Shown: positions 2,734 through 8,504 of the stretch, piece by piece
Layout: every line of letters begins with the position of its first letter
Position numbering within the stretch: position 1 is the first letter of the stretch
From: a virus
Length of the DNA stretch: 43,652 bases
Direction: 5' to 3' (one strand)
Virus genome (UHGV): UHGV-0122704
Notes under the pieces: model-generated
Seen by the model: the letters and a program-made list of their open reading frames with translations, nothing else
Told to the model about the DNA's origin: nothing
Database searches by the model: none
Program-made: the position numbers and the translations under genes

Positions 2734-3083
2734 AGATAGCGAACAAGGCAAGGATAACCACTCTAGGGCGCAAGGATGTGTGTCCCGTCGGATTAGGCTA
2801 GACGTTAAAAATGACCTCTTAAAGGTTTAGTAGTAAGCTGGTTTGCGGGGAGGCCCAGTACCTTGACTGGTACGTTGACGACCCACCCCTAGACAATCAG
2901 TTAAAGAGTAAACGTGCCGGACGTTATCACCGGGGTTCTGAGACAAACCACACTGTCGAGGCGAGAGCAGCTCGCTCCTCTGAATCGAGGGAACAAGGCG
3001 CGGAGTGTATCCCGCAAAGAGCATATAACATAGCGCAGCAGTAACAAGGTTGCGCTAGATTATGTTCTCTGAGAGGTAAGAGT

Positions 3084-3281
3084 ATGCGCAAATCAAAGCG
3101 TTTAGCATTACGGCGGAATATGCAATTATCACTGAATCCCACCGACGACGTGCCGCTTACTGTGAAGCCTAGCAAACAAGGGTTGAGCAGTGAGCACAGG
3201 GTGAGGGGAAAGCAAAAACAAAAGGGCAGTAGCAGGCAGCCATCTGGATGGCCTACTGTTAACTCCCAATTTGGTCGATAA
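3084..3281 (+). CDS. Hypothetical early protein, small and strongly basic (65 aa)
   Basis: ATG 3084 preceded by GAGAGG; first ORF after the early promoter cluster; Lys/Arg-rich. Confidence 0.5.
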   Translation: MRKSKRLALRRNMQLSLNPTDDVPLTVKPSKQGLSSEHRVRGKQKQKGSSRQPSGWPTVNSQFGR

Positions 3282-3287
3282 TTACAG

Positions 3288-3317
3288 CCTATAGCATCCT
3301 ACGGGGTGCTATGTGAA
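3288..3317 (+). promoter_or_regulatory. Conserved intergenic stem-loop motif, copy 1 (CCTATAGCATCCTACGGGGTGCTATGTGAA)
   Basis: 27/30 identical to 4004..4033. Stem ATAGCA/TGCTAT plus CC/GG around a 4-nt loop; no T-run follows. Confidence 0.6.
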
Positions 3318-3352
3318 GTAATTACCTAAACAACCAATCAAAGAGGTGCATT

Positions 3353-3928
3353 ATGACCCATTCAACTGGTAAAGTATTCAAGCTCACCGCTGCGGGCAGC
3401 ATTCGTAAAGCGCTGGGCGACGTAGTGGAAGCAAAGCGCAACATCACTATTAGCGCGCTCTTCCACGGCCTGATTAGCAGCAACGTTTCCTGGGCTATGG
3501 ATATGCAGCGCAGCGATGCCGCGGACTTCGATATGGTGCTGCGTACGCTGCTGCCTATCAAGTTCAACAAGGAGTCCGGCAAATACGAATTCAACGCGAA
3601 GAAGTGCTATGCGTCTGCTGAGAAGCTGGGCATCGAACTGGACACTATGCGTCTGGACTATAAACAAGCTGACAAGCAGGAGCGCGAAGTAATTGTAGCC
3701 AGCTTCTATAGCTCCTGTATGGCCCTGTACGCTGCCGAAGCGGAGCAGGTAAAGAATGACGCGCTGGATGCCGATGCAGTGCGCTTGCAAGCGCTGGGGC
3801 GCGTTAAAAACGCTATCAAGAAGGCAAAAGAGACTGGTGTAAGCGACGCTGACCTCGTGTATATGCTGGTATCGCAGGGCGTGGATGTACGCGCTGTACT
3901 GGACGCAACTTTGAAGGCGGCGGCATGA
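3353..3928 (+). CDS. Hypothetical early protein (191 aa) with host-optimal codon bias, probably abundantly expressed
   Basis: ATG 3353 preceded by AAGAGG. Strong preference for CTG/CGT/AAC/TTC/ATC codons like the capsid gene. No recognisable domain. Confidence 0.7.
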   Translation: MTHSTGKVFKLTAAGSIRKALGDVVEAKRNITISALFHGLISSNVSWAMDMQRSDAADFDMVLRTLLPIKFNKESGKYEFNAKKCYASAEKLGIELDTMRLDYKQADKQEREVIVASFYSSCMALYAAEAEQVKNDALDADAVRLQALGRVKNAIKKAKETGVSDADLVYMLVSQGVDVRAVLDATLKAAA

Positions 3929-4544: not shown

Positions 4545-4724
4545 ATGCACGGAAAGAATCCTGAAACGCTGCTGATGCGTAAGCAGCAACCAACAATCGA
4601 CGGGCTGGCGCGGGAGTACAACGCGAAGGCAGCGCTGCGCCAGCACTATGAGAAACAAGCAAAGCGCCTGGGTATGACCCTGCGCGGCTACTGCTTCCGG
4701 TTTAATGTGCGGGGTGTAGTATGA
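4545..4724 (+). CDS. Hypothetical early protein (59 aa)
   Basis: ATG 4545 preceded by GAGGTGGGGG; ATGA overlap with the next gene suggests translational coupling. Confidence 0.45.
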   Translation: MHGKNPETLLMRKQQPTIDGLAREYNAKAALRQHYEKQAKRLGMTLRGYCFRFNVRGVV

Positions 4725-4939
4725 GCAAGCAGGACATTTATGACGTATATAAGCGCCCTAATGGGTTTCTTTACCGGGTACCTCTATTTAGTCCACTGCA
4801 CGCCCTCGCAGAATTCTATGCAGAGGAGACTAGACTGTGGTTGCCGTCCAGTCACACAGTTGGCGGGGTGGTAATGCTAAGTTGTAGCACCCTTGTGGCC
4901 CGCAACGTGGTATTCAAGGATAGCGCATGCTCACAGTAG
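4721..4939 (+). CDS. Hypothetical early protein (72 aa)
   Basis: ATG 4721 in an ATGA overlap with the upstream ORF. Confidence 0.45.
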   Translation: MSKQDIYDVYKRPNGFLYRVPLFSPLHALAEFYAEETRLWLPSSHTVGGVVMLSCSTLVARNVVFKDSACSQ

Positions 4940-5271
4940 ACGAAACAGCGCTGCTGTGCTGGCGTCTGCTGGAAACGCAGGGCAAGTGCGGTTGCACTTG
5001 GGAAACATTCAAAGAGGTTCCTAATGAACTCAAGCAAATCGTGCCAGTTGAGCGTCGATTACTCCGAGTTAGAAAAGAGGATATTGGCACTGTTCTCACA
5101 ACCTATCGAGAGTACACTGAGTCTGCCGCGCGGAAGCTGCAAGAGCACATTGCATTCGATGTGGTTGCAGCACTACGGCGGAATGGATACCGCGGAGCTT
5201 TTAAGCAATTTAGAGCCGCAGTCCGCGCCTATTATAAGCAGCAACAACTCTCCGCGTGGTACGCACGCTGA
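4927..5271 (+). CDS. Hypothetical early protein (114 aa)
   Basis: ATG 4927 preceded by AAGGA; basic, helix-rich sequence. Confidence 0.45.
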   Translation: MLTVDETALLCWRLLETQGKCGCTWETFKEVPNELKQIVPVERRLLRVRKEDIGTVLTTYREYTESAARKLQEHIAFDVVAALRRNGYRGAFKQFRAAVRAYYKQQQLSAWYAR

Positions 5272-5311
5272 ACTCTTAGTGCATGACGAAGTTCTATTAA
5301 CTCGGGAGCAA

Positions 5312-6994
5312 ATGAAAATGCAAGAAACTAACACAGCACCTATCGAATGGAAAGTAGTGTTACCGGAAGGTGCAAACGCACTGCCGATTAAAGAATCAAT
5401 GTATTCCAGCGGTGATTACTGGACCCCGTTCCAGGACTTGCAAATGCAAGGGGAGGACCATCCCCACACTGAGGGTCCGCTGCAGGTGCTTATGGGTCTC
5501 CGCACTGTCAGTGCGCACACTCCAGGCTTAGAGGTGACTATAGGCGGGGCACTGCACCCAGAGTATCGCGAATCAACGATGACGCTCGGCCCGTTGCAAA
5601 AGGTGGACCTGTACCGGTCCGGAACTTTCTGCGAACTCTTTGAACCGGTGCGAATCACCATAGACAGCAAGTTCTGGGAACGCCGCCGCGACTTCTATGA
5701 GGGCGAGGATGTAGTGGTTGAGCGCGTAGTTGCTTGCGTCGAAGAATTCACAGGTTACAAGGTGCACAAGCAGGCCGTGCAGTTATTTGAGCGCATCATG
5801 CTTGCACCAGAAGAGCAGCAGCGCCGCTTATACACTGGCTACGATTACGGCCGCCACACCCGCGATGGCAACTTAGCTGCGCTGCTCATGAAGTTGCACG
5901 GCTTCGTAGTGTCTAGATTCGCCGTGCCTTTGGGCTTTGGTTTCCGCAACGGCGAACCTATCGTGATGCTGGGGCAGCCGCGGATGCACAAGGACTTCGC
6001 AGCAGTTACTGAGTACCGCTGCGTAGAGATGCGCGTAGGTAAGTGGCTCGCTAACTACTACGGAAATGGTGTGGACTTCCGCGATGCTATCGAAGACCTC
6101 AAGGCTATGAACGTAGACCCTACAACGTACCTGTGCAAGACCGAGCAGGAATGGTACGACGCCTACGAGAATGGCCCGGGTAGCTGCATGAGCGGGTACT
6201 CATTTGAGCATAGCTCTGTGCGGACGTACGCTACCACCAGCCACGGGTTGCCGGATAATGGGCTGCGCCTGTTCATCCAGTACACCGGGGAGCTGTTCGG
6301 CGACGATTTCGAAGTGCAGGCACGGGCAATCGTTAACACAGAAACTAACGAGTACGTCCGCGCTTACGGCAACGCTGCGGATGCAATCCTGCGGGGGCAT
6401 GGGTACACCAAAAACATTGAATGTCTCGAAGGGGTAATGCTGGCGCGAATACCGCACCCAACATACAACGGCGCAGTGCTGATGCCATACCTAGATAGCA
6501 GCCAGTGCGGCGTAGATGAGTATGGGGATGATGCCTTTGTAATCCGTGATGCTTATGAGTACGAGGCACAAGACTCAGAAGGATACATCTACGTAGGCAC
6601 TGAGTCTGCTCGGTGCTGCTGCTGTGAATGTCGCTACTCTGTAGATGACATGCAGGAGACCGCAGATGGTGATATGGTCTGCGACGGCTGCGTAGAAGAA
6701 GGGGATTTTGTGTACGTAGTTGGGCGTGATGGTCTGCATAATCGCTGGAGCTGCACCTGGTCTGATTACCACGACGCCTATGTATACGACGAGGACATAG
6801 AGCGCTGCGAAGTAGAGGGTGTAGTGCACGACCAAGAGGAACTGGTGTTTGCACAGGACCGGCAAGTGCTTATTGAGCACGCAGAAGAACACCCAGTGCA
6901 CGGGTTAATTCTCACTGAGCATGCAGCTGATTGCTTGGGAGAGAAGTACCTGGGCAACGATGAAGATGAAGAAGAAGCAGAGGAGGCAGCTTAA
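5312..6994 (+). CDS. Large hypothetical early protein (~560 aa) with a Cys cluster and an acidic C-terminal tail
   Basis: Track ORF 5024..6994 trimmed to ATG 5312 (GGGAG RBS), which avoids overlapping 4927..5271. Contains CCCCECRYSVDD...CDGC and ends NDEDEEEAEEAA. No family recognised. Confidence 0.6.
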   Translation: MKMQETNTAPIEWKVVLPEGANALPIKESMYSSGDYWTPFQDLQMQGEDHPHTEGPLQVLMGLRTVSAHTPGLEVTIGGALHPEYRESTMTLGPLQKVDLYRSGTFCELFEPVRITIDSKFWERRRDFYEGEDVVVERVVACVEEFTGYKVHKQAVQLFERIMLAPEEQQRRLYTGYDYGRHTRDGNLAALLMKLHGFVVSRFAVPLGFGFRNGEPIVMLGQPRMHKDFAAVTEYRCVEMRVGKWLANYYGNGVDFRDAIEDLKAMNVDPTTYLCKTEQEWYDAYENGPGSCMSGYSFEHSSVRTYATTSHGLPDNGLRLFIQYTGELFGDDFEVQARAIVNTETNEYVRAYGNAADAILRGHGYTKNIECLEGVMLARIPHPTYNGAVLMPYLDSSQCGVDEYGDDAFVIRDAYEYEAQDSEGYIYVGTESARCCCCECRYSVDDMQETADGDMVCDGCVEEGDFVYVVGRDGLHNRWSCTWSDYHDAYVYDEDIERCEVEGVVHDQEELVFAQDRQVLIEHAEEHPVHGLILTEHAADCLGEKYLGNDEDEEEAEEAA

Positions 6995-8055
6995 TGTTCT
7001 TGAATCCGCACGGGATTGATATGCAGCTGCTCTTGCAGATACTGCAAACGCACCGGCCTAGCTGGGGTAGCACTAAGTGGTTCGAGCCGCTGCTTATGCA
7101 GTCGCTACAGGCGCTGGGTAGTGGTATGCACTACGTAAAGGACAAGCACGGGAACTACTTCGTGCTGGTGGGGGACTCAGAGCAAAGTGACGTAGCGTTT
7201 ACGTCTCATCTCGACACAGTGGCACGACCAACCAGCGCTGCGCCGGACGTCGGCTGCACTAACAAGGGCGTGCTGTTCGTAAAGAATCCGCAACAAGCTG
7301 ACTGCTTGGGCGCCGACTGCGGCGCCGGTATCTACCTGATGCTGGAGATGCTGCGGCGCGGCGTGCACGGACGCTACTGCTTCTTCGTGGATGAAGAGGT
7401 AGGCTGCGAGGGTAGCGCTGCATCGGTCAAGGATGACTCTGGATTTTGGACTGGGGTCAAGGCGATGATTAGCTTCGACCGCCGCGGCGACGGTATCATT
7501 ACGCATCAAAGGTATATGCGCTGCTGCTCTGACACCTTTGCCAAGACCCTAGCAGAGCGCCTGGGACGCACGGAGCAGCACTTGCAGAAGGGTGTTTATA
7601 CTGACTCGGCTGAGTTCGTTGGCATCATTCCTGAGTGCACCAACGTCGGTGTAGGGTACATGCACGAGCACACCCCGGATGAGGTGCTGGACCTGAACAT
7701 ACTGGGCCAGGTGCTTGAGCGGGTACTACAAGACGGCACGTTCTCGCACCTCCCTATTGAGCGGGACCCGGCAGTAGCAGAGCCAGACCTATGCCAGTGG
7801 CTCGCTGCATCGACGCTCAGTTTACGGCAGCCGTGGGATATGCCGCCGGACGAGGACCCGCAGTTACTGGCCGCGTTCCGGGAAGTATCGCAGCTTTCTA
7901 AACAACAACTGGTTAGCTGGGTACAGGAGAATCCAGAGAAGGCGGCGGAGTACATAATGGTGTTCTCCGATTACGGCTTTAAAGAAGAACTGATTGAACT
8001 AGGCACCCGAGTCGTAGAAGACTGGGGCGGATACGATAATATTGTGGAGGGTTGA
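6994..8055 (+). CDS. Putative Zn-metallopeptidase-like protein (M20/M28/M42-like ligand pattern)
   Basis: Ordered candidate metal ligands HLD (TSHLDTV), D (GADCGAG), EE (FVDEEVG), D (FDRRGDG), H (MHEHT) match the co-catalytic zinc exopeptidase pattern. Motif-level inference only. Confidence 0.5.
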   Translation: MFLNPHGIDMQLLLQILQTHRPSWGSTKWFEPLLMQSLQALGSGMHYVKDKHGNYFVLVGDSEQSDVAFTSHLDTVARPTSAAPDVGCTNKGVLFVKNPQQADCLGADCGAGIYLMLEMLRRGVHGRYCFFVDEEVGCEGSAASVKDDSGFWTGVKAMISFDRRGDGIITHQRYMRCCSDTFAKTLAERLGRTEQHLQKGVYTDSAEFVGIIPECTNVGVGYMHEHTPDEVLDLNILGQVLERVLQDGTFSHLPIERDPAVAEPDLCQWLAASTLSLRQPWDMPPDEDPQLLAAFREVSQLSKQQLVSWVQENPEKAAEYIMVFSDYGFKEELIELGTRVVEDWGGYDNIVEG

Positions 8056-8057
8056 TT

Positions 8058-8504
8058 ATGTCTAAACTTTTTAAAGTAGGTGATAAGGTTCAGCGCATCA
8101 ATAAGATTGAAGGTAAGACCGTGCGCGGCGAGATAGTCACTAAGGGGCCTGGCCTCTATATAGACATCAAGCTAACCGAAGGCGCAGGGATTCATTATGC
8201 CGGGGATATCTATGGCGGCTCTGCCGACTTCTGGCAGCTAATCGAGGAGGCGGACGAGCTGCCACCGGTTCCGTCTAGTGTAGCATATTTAAACACTAAA
8301 CGAGACCCAGGAAACGACCAGCGGCTGGTATTAGAAAAGGACAGCGAGACTAACGAAGGACTACTATACATCGGAATAGTGCCTAGAAAAGGCAGCACCC
8401 GGGCAGAGCGAGAGATTGGTATTAATATGAGCCCCGATTCAGCCCTGCAGTTGGCACATGACATTCGTCGAATGGCTATGAAAGTTAAGCGAGAGATTCA
8501 GTAA
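8058..8504 (+). CDS. Hypothetical protein (148 aa)
   Basis: ATG 8058 preceded by GGAGGG; track start TTG 8052 is a less likely alternative. Confidence 0.5.
   Translation: MSKLFKVGDKVQRINKIEGKTVRGEIVTKGPGLYIDIKLTEGAGIHYAGDIYGGSADFWQLIEEADELPPVPSSVAYLNTKRDPGNDQRLVLEKDSETNEGLLYIGIVPRKGSTRAEREIGINMSPDSALQLAHDIRRMAMKVKREIQ

What the first reader, a model, noticed from the sequence alone, without database searches (positions are those of the whole stretch)
5312..6994. Large early protein with a tetra-cysteine cluster and a poly-acidic C-terminal tail
At about 560 aa it is unusually large for an early gene of unknown function. It contains CCCCECRYSVDDMQETADGDMVCDGC, a likely metal-binding site, and ends NDEDEEEAEEAA. 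Acidic tails mediate protein-protein docking in T7 replication proteins and DNA mimicry elsewhere. The true start is ambiguous: the track begins at 5024, overlapping the previous ORF, and 5312 is my choice.
Basis: seen in the sequence. Interest (0 to 1): 0.5.

Follow-up and report, generated by a model that had tools for sequence, protein, structure and literature searches.

The report
Unknown phage protein paired with peptidase
The ORF is a real early gene of a KP34-like Klebsiella phage; its function is unknown, but it belongs to a large undescribed phage protein family that always sits immediately upstream of a metallopeptidase-like gene, so the two probably work together.

Summary
The window is a Drulisvirus (KP34-like Klebsiella podophage). 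The ORF, the cysteine cluster and the acidic tail are all real.

- **Start:** most likely ATG 5318 (558 aa), not 5312 or 5024. Over the overlap with the upstream gene, the 5024 frame shows no protein-level selection.
- **Cysteines:** only Cys1 and Cys4 of "CCCC", plus the "CDGC" pair, are conserved. Together they form a CxxC-x18-CxxC zinc ribbon.
- **Partner gene:** in 56 of 56 distant loci the gene co-occurs with a homolog of the downstream M28-like "peptidase", and in 54 it lies directly upstream. The peptidase metal and catalytic residues are invariant.
- **Tail:** the poly-acidic run is specific to this lineage. About 40% of the family ends in -Ala-Ala-COOH, often ...LALAA, which resembles the ssrA tag.

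Best reading: the non-peptidase half of an uncharacterised two-protein early phage module. The DNA-mimic and T7-style docking ideas are not supported. The function remains inferred.

The parts
5305..5308 (+). Shine-Dalgarno-like GGAG, 9 nt upstream of ATG 5318
   Evidence: Present in all 9 aligned Drulisvirus relatives.
5318..6994 (+). Best-supported coding sequence of the target protein (558 aa plus TAA stop)
   Evidence: ATG conserved in 8 of 9 relatives. The 558-aa length equals that of RefSeq Kp2 gp11. Codon-position variability supports coding only downstream of about 5318.
5318..5701 (+). N-terminal region (aa 1-128): fast-evolving, two sequence variants within the genus, predicted with low confidence
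   Evidence: Mean pairwise identity 44% against 77% for the core. pLDDT is below 50 over most of it. See the alignment.
5702..6607 (+). Conserved region (aa 129-430): helical part followed by an alpha/beta core shared by the whole family
   Evidence: pLDDT mostly 80-98. The family-wide matched region is about aa 185-475.
6173..6190 (+). GPGSCM motif (aa 286-291) with invariant Ser289-Cys290 and near-invariant Met291
   Evidence: Ser and Cys are invariant in 61 and in 71 diverse members; Met is invariant in the 71 and at least 90% conserved in the 61.
6359..6376 (+). RAYGNA (aa 348-353) at a strand-helix junction. Tyr350 is invariant and Gly351 nearly so. It resembles GNAT motif A (R/Q-x-x-G-x-G/A).
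   Evidence: The resemblance to motif A is my own reading, not a tested match.
6482..6496 (+). MPYLD (aa 389-393) with invariant Tyr391 and Asp393
6614..6691 (+). Cysteine cluster. The conserved four-Cys zinc ribbon is C433, C436, C455 and C458 (CxxC-x18-CxxC). C434, C435 and C438 are lineage-specific extras.
   Evidence: The four Cys are at least 90% conserved in 61 members. Short beta strands with pLDDT 88-95. Weak LIM/RING profile hits only.
6692..6952 (+). Beta-hairpin-rich C-terminal region (aa 459-545), very acidic (the wider 431-545 stretch has 29 D+E against 7 K+R). Distant homologs carry further CxxC pairs here, so it looks like a degenerate zinc-ribbon/LIM-like array.
   Evidence: Ten short strands, pLDDT above 90. 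Charge counts. Extra Cys pairs seen in homolog sequences. LIM-like fold hits.
6956..6991 (+). Acidic tail NDEDEEEAEEAA ending in -Ala-Ala-COOH
   Evidence: The tail is conserved in Drulisvirus and always ends EAA. A terminal AA is found in 49 of 150 family representatives and 24 of 51 locus copies, against 43 of 798 other ORFs.
6980..6986 (+). GAGGAGG, the ribosome-binding site of the downstream peptidase gene, embedded in the tail codons
   Evidence: Read directly from the sequence. Stop and start overlap as TAATG at 6992-6996.
6994..8055 (+). Partner gene: M28-like (MH-clan) metallopeptidase homolog, 353 aa
   Evidence: Pfam M28 scores 23.0 bits against a cut-off of 21.3. 22 of 31 relatives hit M28. 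A profile hit to Peptidase T has E 5.5e-10. H72, D108, E134, E135, D162 and H226 are invariant. It is adjacent to the target homolog in 54 of 56 loci.
4927..5271 (+). Upstream 114-aa gene (context only). Its frame, not the 5024 frame, is under selection in the overlap.
5013..5026 (+). AGAGG-N6-ATG(5024): the alternative start of the 656-aa frame, lying inside an invariant nucleotide block (4999-5021 plus 5024-5033)
   Evidence: Its function is unexplained.

Best explanation
The gene encodes a 558-aa early protein, called X here. X is the non-peptidase half of a conserved two-gene phage module: X followed by an M28-like (MH-clan) metallo-exopeptidase.

**Shown**
- X is a four-part protein:
  1. 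a fast-evolving, probably disordered N-terminus;
  2. a conserved alpha/beta core with invariant Ser-Cys, Arg, Tyr, Tyr and Asp;
  3. a four-Cys zinc ribbon that leads a beta-hairpin array;
  4. a C-terminal tail that ends in Ala-Ala.
- The X and peptidase genes are adjacent and often translationally coupled in very diverse phages. Nothing else in the neighbourhood is conserved.
- The peptidase keeps all its metal and catalytic residues.

**Inferred**
- The two proteins act together early in infection, either as a complex or as two consecutive steps, on a host or phage protein, peptide or small-molecule substrate.
- X supplies a second catalytic or ligand-binding pocket, possibly a GNAT-like acyl- or aminoacyl-transferase site centred on the Ser-Cys loop.
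- The variable N-terminus and the zinc-ribbon array supply target recognition.
- The -AA-COOH end acts as an ssrA-like signal recognised by ClpXP-type proteases, which would limit the module's lifetime. In this phage the acidic residues before it also encode the peptidase gene's ribosome-binding site.
For: - **Real, conserved gene.** 239 Drulisvirus records. 282 clusters at 50% identity.
- **Start at 5318.**
- **Domain layout.** AF2 model with pLDDT above 90 for 297 residues. Invariant S, C, R, Y, Y, D and the four conserved Cys.
- **Module.** The X homolog and the M28-like homolog co-occur in 56 of 56 loci. These are 7 metagenome assemblies and 49 IMG/VR viral contigs of 12-84 kb. In 54 of 56 the peptidase gene is immediately downstream on the same strand. 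No other ORF cluster is shared by more than 13 loci. PhiM1-like phages carry the same pair (PMC6115819).
- **Peptidase looks active.** H72, D74, D108, E134, E135, D162 and H226 are invariant. Pfam M28 and a PepT profile hit.
- **Tail.** AA-COOH in 24 of 51 targets against 43 of 798 other ORFs (Fisher p = 2e-15). It persists where the partner gene starts 9-833 nt downstream. Many tails read ...LALAA, LELAA, IAA or VAA. The partner protein also ends in AA in 11 of 48 cases.
- **Mostly in phages.** 49 viral loci against 2 loci in 185,579 species genomes, though the two scans used overlapping but not identical patterns.
Against: - No experiment or direct computation shows that the two proteins interact.
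- This protein's own tail ends EAA, not LAA. Part of it is constrained by the downstream ribosome-binding site, so the degron reading rests on the family pattern.
- No substrate can be named.
- In fHe-Kpn01, a related phage, the three proteins confirmed toxic in E. coli were small ones of 69, 182 and 146 aa (PMC7291057). That argues against a grossly toxic activity, if this gene was among the 22 tested; I did not check.
Confidence: 0.45

Rival explanations
1. X is not an enzyme. It is a regulator, a pro-domain-like inhibitor, or a substrate or carrier of the peptidase. For example, the invariant Cys could cap the active-site zinc as a "cysteine switch". Alternatively, the free acidic C-terminus could sit in the exopeptidase active site, in the way the zinc-ribbon carrier LysW pairs with the M20 hydrolase LysK.
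For: - Obligate adjacency to the peptidase gene.
- An invariant Ser-Cys in a loop.
- A conserved free -AA C-terminus.
- A zinc ribbon plus an acidic tail, as in LysW (from my own knowledge).
- A weak NCBIfam hit of the partner to [LysW]-lysine hydrolase, E = 0.074 and not significant.
Against: - X is ten times the size of LysW, and no ATP-grasp ligase is conserved nearby.
- Six invariant polar and aromatic residues spread over 100 residues look more like a pocket than a plug.
- The partner protein itself often ends in AA, which fits a shared degron better than a tail-in-active-site model.
Confidence: 0.15
2. X is a DNA mimic or anti-restriction decoy, like Ocr or ArdA. Its negative surface would bind host DNA-binding defence proteins.
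For: - Early gene.
- pI 4.5, with 101 acidic against 45 basic residues and a net charge of -0.10 per residue. The family mean is -0.067.
- One database record calls a relative "putative DNA mimic protein".
Against: - No sequence or fold similarity to any solved mimic.
- It is far larger than known mimics.
- It has a conserved core with invariant Ser-Cys/Arg/Tyr/Asp and a strictly linked metallopeptidase, neither of which a mimic needs.
- The partner protein is acidic too, so acidity is not specific to X.
Confidence: 0.08
3. X is a replisome accessory protein. Its acidic tail would dock onto the phage DNA polymerase or helicase, as the tails of T7 gp2.5 and gp4 do.
For: - The gene lies just upstream of the primase, helicase and DNA polymerase genes.
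- The acidic tail is conserved within Drulisvirus.
- Distant homologs also sit in early or replication regions.
Against: - The tail ends in Ala-Ala, not the C-terminal aromatic residue that T7 tails need (from my own knowledge).
- Many distant homologs have non-acidic tails.
- The only conserved neighbour is the peptidase, not any replication gene.
- No OB-fold or helicase similarity.
Confidence: 0.07
4. A longer 656-aa isoform is made from ATG 5024, overlapping the upstream gene, in addition to or instead of the 558-aa form.
For: - The frame is open from 4940 in 8 of 9 diverged relatives.
- Codon-shuffling of the upstream gene keeps that frame open in only 0.1-0.4% of trials.
- AGAGG-N6-ATG lies in a nucleotide block that is invariant in all 9 relatives.
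- Many gene callers and PHROG 6980 use the long form.
- 2019KP1 lacks both downstream ATGs.
Against: - No protein-level selection on that frame in the overlap: 50% identity against 52% for the null frame.
- The 5272-5311 link varies at all codon positions.
- Long open +1 runs do occur by chance in this genome: 6 of 500 runs are at least 100 codons.
- Kpn13 has a 2-nt deletion that breaks the frame.
- The 2019KP1 record also looks frameshifted further down the gene, so its quality is doubtful.
Confidence: 0.12

Closest known systems
PHROG 6980 and PHROG 13313 (phage orthologous groups, both "unknown function")
   Same: Full-length match to 6980 (1369 bits, 1-655 of 655). The core matches 13313 (E = 1.5e-11). 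All 61 diverse relatives hit 6980.
   Different: These groups carry no function, structure or partner information. The 6980 profile includes the unsupported 96-aa N-terminal extension.
GNAT-fold acyl/aminoacyl transferases (acetyltransferases, FemA, ATE1)
Four-cysteine zinc ribbons and LIM-type double zinc fingers
   Same: CxxC-x18-CxxC on short beta hairpins. Weak profile and fold hits to LIM and RING proteins.
   Different: It is one module inside a 558-aa protein. The downstream repeats have lost their cysteines in this phage. E-values are not significant (0.017 or higher).
ssrA degradation tag (…YALAA-COOH) and ClpX C-motif-1 degrons
   Same: A free C-terminal Ala-Ala preceded by Leu, Ile, Val or Glu in about 40% of family members, with several tails reading …LALAA.
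   Different: It is encoded in the gene rather than added by tmRNA. This phage has EAA after an acidic run. Recognition by ClpXP is untested.
Acidic C-terminal tails of T7 gp2.5 and gp4
   Same: A short run of Asp and Glu at the extreme C-terminus of an early or replication-region protein.
   Different: No terminal aromatic residue, no OB-fold or helicase domain, and acidity is not conserved across the family.
MH-clan metallopeptidases (M28 aminopeptidases, M20 Peptidase T, M42 TET), for the partner gene
   Same: Pfam M28 scores above its threshold. There is a profile hit to PepT. The His/Asp/Glu-Glu/Asp/His ligand set is invariant.
   Different: About 30% identity or less to any characterised enzyme. 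It has an extra C-terminal region of about 100 aa. It is strictly linked to X, which no characterised M28 enzyme is, as far as I know.

Membership tests
Four-Cys zinc ribbon | Two CxxC pairs separated by about 15-25 residues | tested here: met
   C433-x2-C436 ... C455-x2-C458, with a spacing of 18.
Four-Cys zinc ribbon | All four cysteines conserved across homologs | tested here: met
   At least 90% conserved in 61 diverse members. The extra Cys of the "CCCC" run are not conserved.
Four-Cys zinc ribbon | Cysteines on beta-hairpin knuckles in a confident model | tested here: met
   Short strands at 432-434, 441-443, 447-450 and 455-457, with pLDDT 88-95.
Four-Cys zinc ribbon | Binds zinc | not testable with these tools
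   Needs metal analysis of purified protein.
GNAT acyltransferase superfamily | Significant sequence match to a GNAT model | tested here: not met
   No Pfam or NCBIfam hit for the protein, for 132 relatives against Pfam, or for 61 against NCBIfam.
GNAT acyltransferase superfamily | GNAT fold (b1-a1-a2-b2-b3-b4-a3-b5-a4-b6) | tested here: inconclusive
GNAT acyltransferase superfamily | Motif A (Q/R-x-x-G-x-G/A) between b4 and a3 | tested here: inconclusive
   RAYGNA is at the right place in this protein, but across the family only Tyr-Gly is conserved.
GNAT acyltransferase superfamily | Acyl-CoA or aminoacyl-tRNA dependent transfer activity | not testable with these tools
   Needs a biochemical assay.
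T7 gp2.5/gp4-type acidic docking tail | Acidic run at the extreme C-terminus | tested here: met
   NDEDEEEAEEAA.
T7 gp2.5/gp4-type acidic docking tail | C-terminal aromatic residue required for polymerase binding (from knowledge of T7) | tested here: not met
   The protein ends in Ala-Ala. All Drulisvirus relatives with an intact tail end in EAA.
T7 gp2.5/gp4-type acidic docking tail | Attached to an SSB (OB-fold) or helicase body | tested here: not met
DNA-mimic anti-restriction proteins (Ocr, ArdA) | Sequence or fold similarity to a known mimic | tested here: not met
DNA-mimic anti-restriction proteins (Ocr, ArdA) | Very high negative charge density patterned like DNA | tested here: inconclusive
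   Net charge is -0.10 per residue. That is acidic but lower than I recall for Ocr. The surface pattern could not be examined.
ssrA-like C-terminal degron (ClpX C-motif 1) | Free C-terminal Ala-Ala, usually after a non-polar residue | tested here: inconclusive
   Across the family, AA occurs in 24 of 51 against 43 of 798 background ORFs, with L, I, V or E at position -3. This protein has E at -3 and overlaps a ribosome-binding site.
ssrA-like C-terminal degron (ClpX C-motif 1) | ClpXP- or ClpAP-dependent turnover | not testable with these tools
   Needs stability assays in clp mutants.
MH-clan (M28-like) metallopeptidase, partner gene 6994-8055 | Match to the Pfam M28 model above its gathering score | tested here: met
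   23.0 bits against 21.3. 22 of 31 relatives match.
MH-clan (M28-like) metallopeptidase, partner gene 6994-8055 | His, Asp, Glu-Glu, Asp, His metal and catalytic residues | tested here: met
   H72, D108, E134, E135, D162 and H226 are invariant in 31 relatives and at least 95% conserved in 56.
LysW-type amino-group carrier protein | Small zinc-ribbon protein (about 54 aa) with a C-terminal Glu, used with an ATP-grasp ligase | tested here: not met
   X is 558 aa and ends in Ala. No ligase gene is conserved nearby.

The most novel reading that the evidence does not exclude
X plus the M28-like peptidase is a previously undescribed, widespread enzyme system of lytic phages for host takeover or counter-defence. 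One example would be an acyl- or aminoacyl-transferase working with an aminopeptidase to rewrite the N-termini of host proteins or degrade a host peptide signal. Both components would carry ssrA-like -AA ends so that host ClpXP clears them after the early phase.
Probability: 0.12. Interest if true: 0.85.

Novelty: new variant of a known kind. Interest (0 to 1): 0.55.

Why it matters
This is one of the largest conserved genes of unknown function in Drulisvirus and PhiM1-like phages, groups that are being developed for therapy against Klebsiella and for use against plant pathogens.

The analysis turns an anonymous ORF into a testable two-component system:
- it belongs to a family of at least 282 sequence clusters;
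- its core has no Pfam model and no solved relative;
- it is locked to an apparently active metallopeptidase.

That gives clear handles for experiments: the point mutants, the partner protein, and the -AA tail. If the pair proves to be a host-modifying or counter-defence enzyme system, it would apply to many unrelated lytic phages at once.

Tried and rejected
**Searches with no useful hit**
- Pfam, NCBIfam and PADLOC scans of the protein: nothing. Also nothing for 132 relatives against Pfam and 61 against NCBIfam.
- PDB sequence and profile searches: only non-significant zinc-finger hits.
- Foldseek against the PDB: nothing significant.
- Foldseek against BFVD: only uncharacterised family members, plus weak local hits to an \"amidoligase\", a LIM protein and an N-acetyltransferase. 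I read these as matches to the zinc-ribbon array or as noise.
- A recollection that the SCM motif might be PcfJ-like was not borne out. There is no Pfam hit, and a BFVD \"PcfJ like\" hit has probability 0.06.
- Source names for 10 distant clusters: none.
- Literature searches for Drulisvirus early genes, KP34 peptidase and phage M28: no functional study found.

- The AFDB50 fold library was not available.
- A family-wide pattern scan with the 61-sequence alignment failed because it was too diverse. It was redone with a 10-sequence subset.
- Fused-chain AF2 of peptidase + linker + X: two MAFFT alignments were misaligned (A4 and A5).

**Other negative results**
- A sigma-70 promoter and terminator scan of 4600-8200 gave nothing above the shuffled expectation.
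- Only 2 loci were found in bacterial genomes, both Mesorhizobium.
Full report
**What the window is.** The 43.6-kb window is a Drulisvirus, a KP34-like Klebsiella podophage of the Autographiviridae, subfamily Slopekvirinae. A megablast of 4900-7100 finds 239 phage records, 228 of them Klebsiella phages, mostly at 80-90% identity. In RefSeq relatives the gene order is: small early genes, a 114-aa gene, this gene, a "peptidase", then primase and helicase. The window has the same order.

**Checking the observation.** The open frame 5024..6994 exists. It contains CCCCECRYSVDDMQETADGDMVCDGC (6614-6691) and ends NDEDEEEAEEAA (6956-6991).

**The start codon.** I aligned the window with eight relatives that range from about 72% to 90% nucleotide identity.
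- ATG 5318 is present in 8 of 9 sequences. It lies 9 nt after a GGAG that is present in all 9.
- ATG 5312 is present in only 3 of 9 and lies 3 nt after that GGAG.
- RefSeq Kp2 gp11 is 558 aa, the length given by a start at 5318.

For the long form starting at 5024, I looked at which sites vary in the overlap 5024-5268.
- Variable sites number 35, 28 and 66 at codon positions 1, 2 and 3 of the upstream gene. That is the pattern expected if only the upstream gene is coding there.
- Mean amino-acid identity is 75% in the upstream gene's frame. It is 50% in the 5024 frame, the same as the 52% of the unused third frame.
- The 40-nt link 5272-5311 varies at nearly every position.

So the 558-aa product from 5318 is the best-supported one.

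One oddity remains. The 5024 frame stays open in 8 of 9 relatives. Random synonymous recoding of the upstream gene keeps it open in only 0.1-0.4% of trials. AGAGG-N6-ATG(5024) also sits in a nucleotide block that is invariant in all nine sequences. However, long open +1 runs do occur elsewhere in this genome: 6 of 500 runs are at least 100 codons. I therefore give the long isoform about 12%.

**The cysteines and the tail in relatives.** Within Drulisvirus the "CCCC" run varies: CFCVDC, CACIEC, C-CACC. In 61 diverse family members, only four Cys are at least 90% conserved. In 558-aa numbering they are C433, C436, C455 and C458, which gives CxxC-x18-CxxC. AF2 places them on short hairpins with pLDDT 88-95. 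The acidic tail is conserved in character within the genus and always ends EAA.

**What family it belongs to.**
- The protein has no Pfam, NCBIfam or PADLOC match and no PDB sequence match.
- It matches PHROG 6980 over its full length and PHROG 13313 over its core. Both are "unknown function".
- An exhaustive HMMER search of 1.84 billion cluster representatives found 282 clusters with E of 1e-3 or better. The shared region is about aa 235-475.
- None of 132 diverse members hits any Pfam model, and none of the 61 also scanned hits NCBIfam.
- Invariant residues in 558-aa numbering are Ser289, Cys290, Arg336, Tyr350, Tyr391 and Asp393. They lie in the motifs GPxSCM, ARAxVN, YVRxYG and MPYxDG.
- Cultured phages with the family include Shigella phage Buco, Vibrio phage DE17, Pectobacterium phages Nobby and CB5, a Pseudomonas putida phage, Caulobacter phage Lullwater, and Bradyrhizobium and Rhizobium phages. 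In all of them it is annotated as uncharacterised.

**Structure.** An AF2 model built on the 61-sequence alignment has mean pLDDT 78.
- Residues 130-555 are confident, with 297 residues above 90.
- Residues 1-130 are mostly below 50. That N-terminal part is also the fastest-evolving: 44% mean identity within the genus against 77% for the core. It occurs in two distinct variants.
- Foldseek against the PDB gives nothing better than E = 0.19.
- The order of strands and helices across aa 272-395 resembles the GNAT order. RAYGNA sits where GNAT motif A would be. But helix alpha4 is missing and only Tyr-Gly of that stretch is conserved.

I treat "GNAT-like" as a lead, not a classification.

The C-terminal 115 residues form many short hairpins and are very acidic (29 D+E against 7 K+R). 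Distant homologs carry extra CxxC pairs there, and the weak fold hits are to LIM-type proteins. So this region looks like a partly degenerate zinc-ribbon array.

**The main new result: an obligate partner.** The downstream gene (6994-8055) overlaps the target's stop codon as TAATG, and its ribosome-binding site GAGGAGG lies inside the tail codons.
- It passes the Pfam M28 threshold.
- Its family profile hits Peptidase T at E = 5.5e-10.
- H72, D74, D108, E134, E135, D162 and H226, the MH-clan metal and catalytic set, are invariant.

I then looked at distant homologs of the target, at 20-30% identity. There were 7 metagenome contigs and 49 IMG/VR viral contigs of 12-84 kb.
- All 56 loci encode a homolog of this peptidase-like protein.
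- In 54 of them it is immediately downstream on the same strand.
- Clustering all ORFs in these loci shows that no other gene is shared by more than 13 loci.
- PhiM1-like Pectobacterium phages have the same pair among their core early genes (PMC6115819).
- A pattern scan of 185,579 species genomes found only two loci, both Mesorhizobium. The module therefore looks mainly phage-borne. That scan used only one of the two patterns, in a slightly longer form, so the two counts are not strictly comparable.

**The tail, re-read.**
- Among 150 family representatives, 49 end in Ala-Ala.
- Among dereplicated locus copies the figure is 24 of 51, against 43 of 798 other same-strand ORFs (Fisher p = 2e-15).
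- Many tails read ...LALAA...LELAA...IAA or ...VAA. From general knowledge, this resembles the ssrA tag end that ClpX recognises.
- Where the partner start overlaps the stop codon, "E-A-A-stop" (GAG GCN GCN TAA TG) also creates a well-spaced GAGG ribosome-binding site. Part of the signal could therefore be translational.
- But AA also occurs in at least 13 distinct loci where the partner gene starts 9-833 nt downstream.
- The partner protein itself ends in AA in 11 of 48 cases.

So the poly-acidic run is a lineage feature, partly shaped by the downstream ribosome-binding site. The terminal Ala-Ala is the family feature.

**Interpretation.** The shown facts are a multi-domain protein with an invariant polar pocket, a zinc ribbon, strict linkage to an apparently active metallo-exopeptidase, and an ssrA-like end. 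They fit best with a two-protein early module that acts on a host or phage substrate and is probably short-lived. The remaining steps are inferences: physical complex, transferase chemistry, target recognition by the N-terminus and zinc-ribbon array, and ClpXP clearance.

**Rivals.**
- **Regulator, substrate or carrier of the peptidase** (about 0.15). The cysteine-switch and LysW analogies are attractive. However, X is large, no ligase is conserved nearby, and the partner shares the AA end.
- **DNA mimic** (about 0.08). X is acidic, and one record is labelled that way. But there is no similarity to any mimic, and a mimic needs neither a conserved pocket nor a peptidase.
- **T7-style replisome docking** (about 0.07). 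The position fits, but the terminal residue and the family-wide pattern do not.
- **Long isoform from 5024** (about 0.12).

**Other evidence.** In the related phage fHe-Kpn01, 22 proteins of unknown function were screened for toxicity in E. coli. The three confirmed as toxic were small, at 69, 182 and 146 aa (PMC7291057). I did not confirm that this gene was among the 22 tested. I found no functional study of this gene or its partner.

**Novelty and score.** The gene is already deposited hundreds of times as "hypothetical protein". What I could not find in any database label or paper searched is the family-level picture:
- a core not covered by Pfam and with no solved relative;
- the obligate M28-like partner;
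- the conserved zinc ribbon;
- the -AA terminus.

I rate it a new variant of a known kind: a zinc-ribbon accessory or enzyme partnered with an MH-clan peptidase. There is a 12% case that it is a new phage enzyme system. Interest is 0.55. It is a solid, widely distributed and testable unknown, but no mechanism has been demonstrated.

Noticed in passing
window 4999-5033 (inside the 114-aa gene 4927-5271): A block of 23 + 10 nt (4999-5021 and 5024-5033) is invariant in all 9 diverged Drulisvirus sequences, even at third codon positions. It contains AGAGG-N6-ATG(5024). The +1 frame stays open across almost the whole upstream gene in 8 of 9 relatives, yet shows no amino-acid conservation. The cause is unexplained. 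It could be an internal initiation site, an RNA element or a promoter for the phage polymerase.
   Followed up: partly
L002 (phiBO1E) 3031-3519; also SRD2021, Dlv622 and RCIP0014: Some relatives carry an HNH homing endonuclease inserted at the very start of the 114-aa upstream gene. The first 40 nt of that gene are duplicated at the insertion site.
   Followed up: no
window 6994-8055: The "peptidase" has a complete MH-clan metal and catalytic residue set, plus further invariant residues (R21, D204, E214-C215, N217, E230). Its C-terminal region of about 100 aa is variable. It is as widespread as the target and more conserved.
   Followed up: partly
L009-L064, C-termini of the peptidase homologs: The partner proteins also end in Ala-Ala more often than background: 11 of 48 against 43 of 798. 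Both module proteins may therefore share a C-terminal signal.
   Followed up: partly
window 5318-5701 and the same region in L001-L008: The first 128 residues or so of the target occur in two very different sequence variants within the genus. Conserved islands include SSGDYW and GPL..VD. This suggests recombination or rapid evolution of a specificity region.
   Followed up: partly
L003 (2019KP1) and L005 (Kpn13): These two deposited genomes have frameshift-like disruptions in this gene or the upstream gene: a 2-nt deletion in Kpn13, and an out-of-frame stretch through the zinc ribbon plus loss of both ATGs in 2019KP1. Sequencing errors are a possible cause.
   Followed up: no
L012 7132-8367; L015 5421-6513: Distant module-carrying contigs also encode DUF2201 (VWA-like), an Rv2179c-like exonuclease and Nmad5 nearby. 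None of these is consistently linked to the module.
   Followed up: no
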